DNA of 64,000 nt from Escherichia coli (GCF_030013595.1 NZ_CP122768.1); one strand, 5' to 3'. Shown: positions 11,089 through 11,732, numbered from the stretch's first letter. Notes: generated by a model not told the origin, from the letters alone. Numbers and translations: made by a program.

Positions 11089-11118
11089 AAATAAAAAAGC
11101 CACCTATTAGAAGGTGGC
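11089..11118 (-). terminator. rho-independent terminator after the moron
   Basis: 7-bp stem GCCACCT/AGGTGGC, 6-nt loop, followed on minus strand by a run of six U. Confidence 0.7.
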
Positions 11119-11138
11119 CTTGTAATGAATTTTATTAA

Positions 11139-11669
11139 TTAGCGAGTCAGAAACAACGAATCTTTATACTTTTGCTGTTGTTCATTTAAATACTTAGCTG
11201 TTTCATCGCTGGCAAATGGAAATATTACCGTATTTTTAGGCATGGTAATTTCTTTTTTGTCCAGCGTCAGAGTAAACATAGGAACATACTGAGCAGAGTA
11301 ACGCACCGCAGAAACGAGCTCTAGTTTAGACTCTTCAATAACACTTAAATTATCCTGGCTAACTTTCTCTTCATCTTTTTTCTTTGACGCATTTAAAGTT
11401 TTTATTACTTTATTTAATTTCTCCTGAAAATCCTCCTTAAAGTTTTCAGGATTGCCGTCGACAACAAGAATCTGTTCACCCTGATTATCTGGAAAAATAA
11501 TCTTTGCACTTATCAATTTATTTTCTTTATAAACATCACCAAGTTTTATGGCTCCTCCAGATAACTGAATAATATGTTCATCTTTAAAGGAGATGTTGCC
11601 AGAGATTATGAGAGATGAAAAAATAGCCGCTGCTCCAAGAATTACACTTGCTGTGATATAGCCTTTCAT
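11139..11669 (-). CDS. moron: membrane-anchored or secreted protein of unknown function
   Basis: 176 aa, hydrophobic N-terminus MKGYITASVILGAAAIFSSLIISG then K/E-rich hydrophilic body; ~33% GC inside GC-rich tail operon; own promoter and terminator. Confidence 0.55.
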   Translation of the reverse strand: MKGYITASVILGAAAIFSSLIISGNISFKDEHIIQLSGGAIKLGDVYKENKLISAKIIFPDNQGEQILVVDGNPENFKEDFQEKLNKVIKTLNASKKKDEEKVSQDNLSVIEESKLELVSAVRYSAQYVPMFTLTLDKKEITMPKNTVIFPFASDETAKYLNEQQQKYKDSLFLTR

Positions 11670-11704
11670 TTTTCGCCTATTAACATTTTTCTAAATGTGC
11701 ATTA

Positions 11705-11732
11705 ATTCTATCACTCTATTTATGACTTACAA
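11705..11732 (-). promoter_or_regulatory. putative sigma70 promoter of the moron (TTGTAA-16-TAGAAT)
   Basis: Hexamers read on minus strand in the 90-bp gap between tape-measure stop and moron start. Confidence 0.45.

What the first reader, a model, noticed from the sequence alone, without database searches (positions are those of the whole stretch)
11089..11732. AT-rich moron with its own promoter and terminator inside the tail operon
Between the tape-measure gene and the Mu N-like gene sits a ~33% GC gene for a 176-aa protein with a hydrophobic N-terminus and a K/E-rich body. It has a near-consensus promoter (TTGTAA-16-TAGAAT) and a clean terminator, so it can be expressed from the repressed prophage. 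Related Mu-like tail clusters, as I recall them, have no gene here. Function unknown; envelope-located exclusion or defence is a reasonable guess.
Basis: partly seen in the sequence, partly recalled or inferred. Interest (0 to 1): 0.5.

Follow-up and report, generated by a model that had tools for sequence, protein, structure and literature searches.

The report
Prophage tail-operon moron encoding membrane protein
An AT-rich accessory gene ("moron") sits between two tail genes of a decayed SfV-like prophage and encodes an uncharacterised inner-membrane-anchored periplasmic protein; it is an ordinary kind of element, but its site is a swap-spot for envelope proteins, one of which is annotated as blocking phage superinfection.

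Summary
A 176-aa ORF (11139-11669, minus strand, 34% GC against 51-56% in the flanks) lies between the tape-measure (TMP) gene and the Mu N-like gene. A TTGTAA-16-TAGAAT motif with a TGn extension lies upstream, and a strong hairpin plus T-run lies downstream.

Mu, SfV, SfI and SfII have no gene at this site. About 175 of roughly 1,100 E. coli genomes with this tail module carry this cassette at 99% identity or more. Others carry unrelated cargo there: a secreted 170-aa protein, a lipoprotein, a PH-domain protein, and a membrane OB-fold protein that PHROGs annotates as "superinfection exclusion Sie-like".

Homologues with 38-58% identity occupy the same junction in Leclercia and related prophages. 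More distant ones sit in another tail type and in non-phage islands.

The product is predicted (pLDDT 88) to have an N-terminal membrane helix and a roughly 150-aa periplasmic alpha/beta domain. It has no solved or annotated structural relative.

It meets the in-silico criteria for a moron, with two cautions. The promoter is only modestly better than chance and is not conserved. A terminator is present at this site even when it is empty.

My best guess for function is superinfection exclusion at the envelope, at about 0.4, inferred rather than shown. This is a new member of a known kind, of modest interest.

The parts
11727..11732 (-). -35-like hexamer TTGTAA
   Evidence: Consensus scan; shuffle test.
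11705..11713 (-). Extended -10: TGA + TAGAAT. The inferred transcription start is near 11698.
   Evidence: TG before the second hexamer. Score plus TGn is reached in 1.2% of shuffles. The start site is inferred, not measured.
11674..11678 (-). Weak Shine-Dalgarno (AGGCG), 4-9 nt upstream of the ATG
   Evidence: Read directly from the sequence.
11139..11669 (-). CDS for a 176-aa protein with an N-terminal signal-anchor helix (about residues 3-24) and a periplasmic alpha/beta domain. Member of PHROG 5485.
   Evidence: pN is well below pS against the orthologues.
11089..11121 (-). Intrinsic terminator: hairpin GGCCACCT-TCTAAT-AGGTGGC(TT) followed by a T-run
   Evidence: An allele-specific equivalent exists at every same-strand allele of the site.
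11075..11086 (-). Left boundary of the cassette: the ribosome-binding site GGAG and the ATG of the Mu N-like gene. These are conserved in all alleles.
11761..11860 (-). Right boundary zone: the last ~100 nt of TMP are only 74-77% identical to SfV and SKA5, against 92-100% for the rest of the gene. This marks the mosaic joint.
11761..13593 (-). Tape-measure gene, inactivated here by an amber codon (CAG to TAG, Q256*) at 12826-12828
9749..11077 (-). Mu N-like 'DNA circularization' tail/baseplate gene

Best explanation
The region 11086-11760 is a self-contained moron cassette (promoter-like element, one ORF, terminator) lodged at the TMP/N junction of an SfV-like prophage. That prophage has HK97-type head genes and a Mu-type contractile tail.

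The cassette is exchanged among prophages by homologous recombination in the flanking tail genes. It is not transposed.

Its product is inserted into the inner membrane by an uncleaved or poorly cleaved N-terminal signal-anchor. This orientation (N-terminus inside) displays a roughly 150-aa alpha/beta domain in the periplasm.

Most likely, this domain interferes with a step after adsorption in incoming phages, such as tail-tip or tape-measure penetration, or DNA transfer across the periplasm and inner membrane. That would be superinfection exclusion protecting the lysogen. When the gene is read through from the late operon, it could also protect progeny from wasteful injection into lysing cells.

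Approximate probabilities:
- moron / accessory cassette: 0.85-0.9
- bitopic membrane protein with a periplasmic domain: 0.8
- superinfection exclusion as the function: 0.35-0.4

The stated confidence refers to the whole chain.
For: Shown:
- Presence/absence polymorphism at a fixed syntenic site.
- A GC drop of about 18 points.
- A promoter-like motif and a strong terminator.
- No flanking transposon repeats.
- The cassette is 99.7-99.9% identical between carriers whose flanking tail genes are only 97-98.4% identical.
- It is a real, constrained protein. The family has 61 representatives, and synonymous sites are saturated (pS 0.72-0.83) while pN is 0.26-0.50. The AlphaFold2 pLDDT rises from 38 to 88 when the family alignment is supplied.
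- Topology signals: K/R precede a roughly 20-residue uncharged segment in 52 of 56 members, the median Kyte-Doolittle 19-residue hydropathy is 2.2, and the model has a helix at residues 3-22.

Inferred:
- Four of the five gene-bearing alleles at the junction encode exported or membrane-anchored proteins (signal-anchor, signal peptide, lipobox, TM + OB-fold).
- The OB-fold allele matches PHROG 8545 'superinfection exclusion Sie-like' at E = 1.5e-49, and Pfam tRNA_anti-like.
- The only viral structural neighbour is a phage lipoprotein.
- The layout copies HK97 gp15, a tail-operon moron with a terminator beside the TMP gene. gp15 is an inner-membrane superinfection-exclusion protein (PMC3594210).
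- The ORF is intact in two carriers whose TMP genes are independently broken: an amber codon here and a +1 frameshift in KSC1031.
- In the window the prophage has lost everything beyond the HNH and terminase genes to an IS4-family element. Only a local promoter could therefore express the gene.
Against: - The promoter is only 9 of 12 matches and is not conserved in orthologous loci.
- AT-rich foreign DNA in enterobacteria is commonly silenced by H-NS (general knowledge), so constitutive expression is not assured.
- The PHROG label on the neighbouring allele is an annotation, not an experiment.
- Distant family members occur outside phages, beside a resolvase or an integrase. The function therefore need not concern phage entry.
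- TMP C-terminal variants do not co-vary with the cargo family.
Confidence: 0.4

Rival explanations
1. It is a lysogenic-conversion or fitness factor unrelated to phages. The periplasmic domain would alter an envelope property such as stress tolerance, serum or antimicrobial resistance, adhesion, or a transport or secretion machine, in the manner of lambda Bor or Lom.
For: - Same anatomy as the best explanation: envelope targeting and moron organisation.
- Carriers include many human, animal and extraintestinal isolates.
- Distant homologues lie in non-phage islands.
- Documented morons have many non-defence roles (PMC3594210).
Against: - No similarity to any known virulence or fitness factor.
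- The family recurs specifically inside tail and baseplate operons of two different myovirus tail types.
- A neighbouring allele is annotated Sie-like.
Confidence: 0.25
2. It is a lytic-cycle accessory protein made only from the Q-antiterminated late transcript. It could tune infection, lysis or release, or stop progeny from injecting into lysing cells, as proposed for T5 Llp. The promoter motif would then be fortuitous.
For: - It has the same orientation as the tail genes in every tail-operon occurrence.
- The promoter is statistically weak and not conserved.
- Its divergence tracks that of the tail module, which suggests long co-residence.
- Intact carriers encode a Q antiterminator that would read through the hairpins.
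Against: - It is dispensable: it is absent from Mu, SfV, SfI and SfII.
- It is replaced by unrelated genes, including one on the opposite strand.
- It is kept intact in prophages with dead TMP genes and, in the window, with no late regulatory region.
- Homologues occur outside phages.
Confidence: 0.15
3. It is an orphan immunity or protection protein against a toxin that acts in the periplasm, such as a type VI effector, bacteriocin or tailocin, carried as prophage cargo.
For: - It is a small, stand-alone periplasm-facing protein that diverges faster than its neighbours: 53-54% identity against 69-86% for most tail proteins.
- It is found in variable regions of several mobile elements without a conserved partner.
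Against: - No cognate toxin gene is adjacent in any context examined.
- No match to known immunity families.
Confidence: 0.1
4. It is a transcriptionally silent or functionally neutral passenger that persists only through linkage and recombination at a permissive site.
For: - AT-rich DNA is a typical H-NS target (general knowledge).
- No function can be assigned.
- Weak Shine-Dalgarno sequence.
Against: - Length and fold are conserved across 61 representative sequences, down to about 23% identity.
- There are invariant residues (G39, G44, Y124), and pN is well below pS.
- The ORF is intact in decayed prophages.
Confidence: 0.1

Closest known systems
HK97 gp15 moron (Juhala et al. 2000; Cumby et al. 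2012; reviewed in PMC3594210)
   Same: - Single-gene cassette inside a tail operon, next to the tape-measure gene.
- Followed by a terminator that abuts the next tail gene.
- Deviant GC, and absent from close relatives.
- The product inserts in the inner membrane. gp15 blocks genome entry in a tail-dependent way.
   Different: - gp15 is 62 aa and sits upstream of TMP in a siphovirus.
- This protein is 176 aa with a folded periplasmic domain, sits downstream of TMP, and is in a contractile-tail module.
- No sequence similarity.
- Function here is untested.
P22 SieA, T4 Imm/Sp and P1 Sim (envelope-located superinfection-exclusion proteins)
   Same: Prophage- or phage-encoded inner-membrane or periplasmic proteins that act after adsorption (PMC11436027).
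   Different: No sequence or structural relationship was detected. The mechanism is not shown here.
PHROG 8545 'superinfection exclusion Sie-like' (TM + OB-fold, Pfam tRNA_anti-like)
   Same: Occupies exactly the same TMP/N junction in other E. coli SfV-like prophages. It also has an N-terminal membrane helix and an exported domain.
   Different: Unrelated sequence and fold class. It is encoded on the opposite strand, with its terminator at the TMP end.
PHROG 5485 (function unknown)
   Same: Full-length match, E = 1.5e-107, covering 176 of 176 profile positions. This is the family to which the protein belongs.
   Different: The family has no annotation, so membership adds no functional knowledge.
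Tab of Pseudomonas phage JBD26 (PMC10884400)
   Same: A moron in a late operon, expressed from the prophage, whose defence is linked to the tape-measure protein.
   Different: Tab is an 83-aa protein located between the terminase genes. The paper mentions no transmembrane segment, and Tab blocks tail assembly rather than entry. No similarity to this protein.

Membership tests
Moron (sensu Juhala 2000 / Cumby 2012, PMC3594210) | Extra DNA at a syntenic position where close relatives have none | tested here: met
   Mu has a 4-bp gap. SfV, SfI and SfII have a 60-bp spacer. About 17 of 40 sampled E. coli loci are empty.
Moron (sensu Juhala 2000 / Cumby 2012, PMC3594210) | Base composition differs from the surrounding genes | tested here: met
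   GC is 0.34 against 0.51-0.56 in the flanks. Orthologues are 0.35-0.42 against 0.50-0.58.
Moron (sensu Juhala 2000 / Cumby 2012, PMC3594210) | Own promoter | tested here: inconclusive
   TTGTAA-16-TGnTAGAAT is present. The score is reached in 14% of shuffles, or 1.2% with the TGn extension. No conserved counterpart exists in orthologous loci.
Moron (sensu Juhala 2000 / Cumby 2012, PMC3594210) | Own terminator | tested here: met
   Strong hairpin plus T-run. The hairpin sequence is allele-specific, but an equivalent hairpin also exists at empty sites.
Moron (sensu Juhala 2000 / Cumby 2012, PMC3594210) | Expressed from the repressed prophage | not testable with these tools
   Requires RNA-seq, 5'RACE or reporter fusions in a lysogen.
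Superinfection-exclusion proteins (gp15 / SieA / Imm / Sim type) | Located in the cell envelope | tested here: met
   In silico only: signal-anchor helix at residues 3-24, positive-inside charge distribution, periplasmic domain.
Superinfection-exclusion proteins (gp15 / SieA / Imm / Sim type) | Homology to a characterised exclusion protein | tested here: not met
   PADLOC gives 0 hits. tblastn against phage records gives no match. BFVD and PDB give no known Sie protein.
Superinfection-exclusion proteins (gp15 / SieA / Imm / Sim type) | Blocks infection after normal adsorption | not testable with these tools
   Requires plating, adsorption and DNA-entry assays.
Core Mu-type tail/baseplate gene | Conserved in all related tail modules | tested here: not met
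   Absent from Mu, SfV, SfI and SfII, and replaced by unrelated genes elsewhere.
i-spanin (Rz-like) | Type II membrane protein with a coiled-coil periplasmic domain, paired with an o-spanin in the lysis cassette | tested here: not met
   The periplasmic domain is a six-stranded alpha/beta fold. There is no partner lipoprotein gene. Intact relatives have separate spanin genes in the lysis cassette.
PHROG 5485 | Full-length profile match | tested here: met
   E = 1.5e-107, residues 1-176 matched to profile positions 1-176.

The most novel reading that the evidence does not exclude
The TMP/N junction of SfV-like (Mu-tail) prophages is a previously undescribed hotspot dedicated to envelope-acting anti-phage cargo. 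The 176-aa protein would found a new family, with a new fold, of inner-membrane-anchored periplasmic superinfection-exclusion proteins. The family would be spread across Gammaproteobacteria and would block genome delivery by contractile-tailed phages.
Probability: 0.3. Interest if true: 0.55.

Novelty: new member of a known kind. Interest (0 to 1): 0.35.

Why it matters
Morons are the main route by which prophages change their hosts, and most of their products remain unassigned. This family is in about 3% of complete E. coli genomes and in several other Gammaproteobacteria. It has a confident predicted structure with no characterised relative. It sits at a junction where at least five unrelated genes, four of them encoding envelope proteins, alternate.

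If it proves to be an exclusion factor, it would add a new fold to the short list of entry-blocking proteins. It would also mark a convenient, easily recognised genomic address for mining more of them. That bears on phage-therapy host range in E. coli and Shigella. If it is not an exclusion factor, it remains one more ordinary moron of unknown function.

Tried and rejected
- **Known protein families.** PADLOC, NCBIfam and Pfam, on the single sequence and on all 56 aligned members, gave nothing meaningful. A PDB sequence-profile search gave nothing below E = 2.
- **Single-sequence AlphaFold2.** The model was useless, with pLDDT 38.
- **RNA element.** Only sub-threshold Rfam hits to attenuator leaders, caused by the terminator hairpin.
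- **Transposon.** No terminal inverted or direct repeats.
- **Homology to HK97 gp15.** Rejected: gp15 is 62 aa and unrelated.
- **i-spanin.** Rejected on fold and context.
- **Linkage of cargo to a self-resistant TMP C-terminus.** Rejected: TMP tails do not cluster by cargo family.
- **Literature.** The RefSeq accession WP_000679479 appears in no paper held. Papers on SfV, SfIV and CFT073 morons concern other sites. The Tai and Tab papers describe unrelated proteins.
- **TMP 'frameshift'.** I first assumed the window's TMP was frameshifted. It is a nonsense codon.

Full report
**1. What is there**

The window carries a minus-strand tail operon. Between the tape-measure gene (TMP, 11761-13593) and the Mu N-like 'DNA circularization' gene (9749-11077) lies a single ORF at 11139-11669 (-) of 176 aa. 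GC falls from 0.51-0.60 in the flanks to 0.32-0.35 across 11100-11800. The ORF is 0.343 GC and the spacer 11089-11760 is 0.339, against 0.517 for the whole window.

No other ORF of 40 aa or more lies in the spacer on either strand. No Rfam family reaches its threshold there. There are no transposon-like terminal repeats.

**2. Signals**

It reads TTGTAA (11732-11727), a 16-nt spacer, then TAGAAT (11710-11705), with a TGn extended -10. It matches 9 of 12 consensus positions.

- The 5-kb region holds no more promoter-like sites than its shuffles do (4 found against 4.3 expected).
- In dinucleotide shuffles of the 91-nt upstream spacer, 14% reach the same score. Only 1.2% do so with the TG extension as well.
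- Upstream regions of orthologues in other genera have no comparable motif at a conserved place.

The terminator is strong: 10 pairs, -18.5 kcal/mol, z = -3.75, followed by T6AT4. It ends 2-3 nt before the GGAG ribosome-binding site of N.

**3. Identity of the prophage and state of the site in relatives**

The flanks are 96.6-96.9% identical to Shigella and E. coli phages SfV, SfI, SfII and SKA5. The module has an HK97-type head and a Mu-type contractile tail. Intact E. coli relatives carry a Q antiterminator.

- In Mu itself, TMP and N are 4 bp apart.
- In SfV, SfI and SfII the spacer is 60 bp. It consists of little more than a GC hairpin plus T-run before N's ribosome-binding site.
- Among 5,426 complete E. 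coli genomes, 1,102 have this tail segment.
- Of those, 173-178 have this cassette, and 179 of 180 matching records are 99% identical or more.

An evenly spaced sample of 40 matching records gave the following alleles.

| Allele at the junction | Records of 40 | Evidence |
|---|---|---|
| This 176-aa gene | 6 | |
| Empty (60-bp spacer) | about 17 | |
| AT-rich 170-aa protein with a signal peptide, as in phage SKA5 | 4 | |
| 148-aa TM + OB-fold protein on the opposite strand | 3 | |
| PH-domain gene disrupted by IS1 | 1 | |
| 225-aa lipoprotein with lipobox LLGGC | 1 | |

The remaining records matched only part of the query, mostly the N gene alone.

All same-strand alleles end in their own GC hairpin plus T-run, followed by the invariant (C)GGAGTTTAT-ATG of N. 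The opposite-strand allele places its hairpin at the TMP end instead.

The junction is therefore a multi-allele cargo hotspot. A terminator at that position is a property of the site, not only of this gene.

**4. How the cassette moves**

Between carriers, the cassette is 99.7-99.85% identical, whereas N is 97.1-98.0% and TMP is 98.1-98.4% identical.

Against SfV and SKA5, identity across TMP is 92-100% per 100 nt, except for the last 100 nt, where it is 74-77%. On the other side, similarity resumes at N's ribosome-binding site.

Together with the absence of repeats, this indicates exchange by homologous recombination in the flanking genes. This mosaicism is typical of morons.

**5. The protein family**

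PHROG 5485 (function unknown) matches over the full length, at E = 1.5e-107. No isolated phage among 50,697 records encodes the protein.

Word-indexed and exhaustive HMMER searches found 25 and 61 relatives respectively. All are about 165-195 aa and none is annotated. AFDB neighbours place the family in Enterobacterales, Acinetobacter, Pseudomonas, Vibrio, Photobacterium, Shewanella and Aeromonas.

| Homologue | Identity to the window protein | Genomic context |
|---|---|---|
| Leclercia and metagenomic SfV-like prophages (family also in Lelliottia) | 53-58% | The same TMP/N junction |
| P0029 | 38% | The same TMP/N junction |
| P0044 | 30% | Between baseplate genes of a different (Pam3/E217-like) myovirus tail module, again followed by a hairpin terminator |
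| P0062, P0064 and P0073 | about 27% | Beside a resolvase; near an integrase; or with no phage or mobile-element genes called in the flank read |

No partner gene is conserved across these contexts.

Between E. coli and Leclercia prophages, most tail proteins are 69-86% identical, but this protein is only 53-54% identical. With the more distant prophage L012 the figures are 53-87% against 38%. The gene has therefore probably been a long-term resident of this junction in part of the lineage, evolving faster than its neighbours. It is not a one-off recent insertion.

Synonymous sites are saturated (pS 0.72-0.83) while pN is 0.26-0.50. The alignment has invariant G39, G44 and Y124. The AlphaFold2 pLDDT rises from 38 with a single sequence to 88 with 56 sequences. 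This is a real, constrained protein.

**6. Predicted structure and topology**

The model has these elements:

- helix 3-22
- a linker
- strands 33-36, 39-42, 46-58 and 67-72
- helix 74-93
- strands 114-126 and 132-143
- helix 149-171

Across the family, K/R residues precede an uncharged segment with a median length of 20 residues in 52 of 56 members. The median Kyte-Doolittle 19-residue hydropathy is 2.2. Most members lack a small residue at the -1 position for signal peptidase (…LIISD|N…). I infer a type II (N-terminus inside) inner-membrane anchor with a periplasmic domain of about 150 aa. Cleavage cannot be excluded.

The fold has no informative relative:

- Foldseek on AFDB50 returns only family members.
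- BFVD returns one 'lipoprotein' of Pseudomonas phage ventosus, at E = 3e-6 and TM-score 0.55-0.66.

**7. Function**

Nothing demonstrates function. The arguments for envelope-level superinfection exclusion are all circumstantial.

- The product is located in the envelope.
- The gene recurs inside tail operons of two tail types.
- Four of the five gene-bearing alleles at the junction encode exported or membrane proteins.
- One allele matches PHROG 8545 'superinfection exclusion Sie-like' at E = 1.5e-49, and Pfam tRNA_anti-like.
- The organisation matches HK97 gp15, the prototype moron. gp15 sits in the tail operon beside TMP with a terminator before the next gene. Its product is an inner-membrane protein that blocks genome entry in a tail-dependent manner (PMC3594210). 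P22 SieA is another inner-membrane entry blocker (PMC11436027).
- The ORF is intact in decayed hosts. In the window, TMP carries an amber codon (Q256*, CAG to TAG, 12826-12828). The prophage is also cut off after the terminase and HNH genes by an IS4-family element (24354-25562) next to icd. Neither Q nor a late promoter is present in the window. In strain KSC1031, TMP has an independent +1 frameshift.

Arguments against:

- There is no homology to any known defence protein.
- The promoter is weak and not conserved.
- H-NS silencing of AT-rich DNA is likely (general knowledge).
- The family occurs outside phages.
- TMP C-termini do not co-vary with cargo type.

I put exclusion at about 0.35-0.4. 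The rivals are a non-phage envelope fitness factor (0.25), a late-only lytic accessory protein (0.15), an orphan immunity protein (0.1) and a silent passenger (0.1).

**8. Comparison with the known, and verdict**

The element meets the in-silico criteria for a moron: syntenic presence/absence, deviant GC and a terminator. The promoter criterion is inconclusive and prophage expression is untestable here.

It is not a core tail gene and not a spanin. It is not demonstrably a member of any Sie family; it may work like one.

It is a new, uncharacterised member of a well-known kind of element. The added value from this analysis is threefold:

- recognising that the TMP/N junction of SfV-like prophages is a hotspot alternating at least five unrelated genes, four of which encode envelope proteins;
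- defining a family of about 175-aa proteins with a confident but unmatched fold;
- showing that the 'own terminator' is generic to the site.

Interest is modest at 0.35. It would rise to about 0.55 if exclusion were demonstrated.

Noticed in passing
window 12826-12828 (-): The tape-measure gene carries an in-frame amber codon (CAG to TAG, Q256*) relative to SfV and E. coli EC1515. The tail module in the window is therefore defective unless the codon is suppressed.
   Followed up: yes
window 24023-27883: Similarity to the prophage stops after the HNH and terminase genes at about 24023. An IS4-family transposase gene (24354-25562) follows, then icd (26633-27883), which is the e14 attachment locus. 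The lysis, Q, replication and immunity modules are missing, so this is a cryptic remnant. The chromosomal flank is only 98.1-98.6% identical to complete E. coli genomes, so the host may be Shigella or a divergent lineage. The host was not determined.
   Followed up: partly
L004 (E. coli KSC1031) 2562-4395: A second carrier of the cassette has an independent TMP lesion: a 1-nt insertion near the 3' end, annotated as 'frameshifted'. The 176-aa ORF is intact.
   Followed up: partly
L001 1969-2481; L017 1689-2135; L018 1642-1944; L019 1632-2309: Four unrelated cargo genes occupy the same TMP/N junction in other E. coli prophages. They encode a 170-aa protein with a signal peptide (PHROG 8976), a TM + OB-fold 'Sie-like' protein on the opposite strand (PHROG 8545), a PH-domain protein with an IS1 insertion (PHROG 7115), and a 225-aa lipoprotein (PHROG 1353).
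   Followed up: partly
L002 1885-1925 (SfV); L003 1888-1926 (SfII): Even the empty junction carries a terminator-like hairpin plus T-run immediately before the ribosome-binding site of N. Late transcription must therefore read through it, presumably through the Q antiterminator. The hairpin may be a relic of lost cargo, or it may be the feature that makes this site permissive.
   Followed up: partly
L005 10013-11808 (also L006-L008): Leclercia-type prophages have two extra genes without Pfam matches (about 503-520 aa and 94 aa) between N and the baseplate hub gene P. L009 and the window lack them. This is a second variable site in the same tail module.
   Followed up: no
H1 / NZ_CP034738.1 365151-369859: In E. 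coli strain L65, an IS200C element is inserted within this 4-kb TMP-moron-N segment.
   Followed up: no
P0066 (3842 aa), residues about 973-1016 and five further stretches: A giant repetitive protein matches residues 10-53 of the query six times, at E = 2e-7. This is probably a compositional or repeat artefact. It was not examined.
   Followed up: no
window 11161-11190 and 11368-11397: There is an imperfect 30-nt direct repeat (70% identity) inside the ORF. It is probably a chance match in AT-rich DNA.
   Followed up: no
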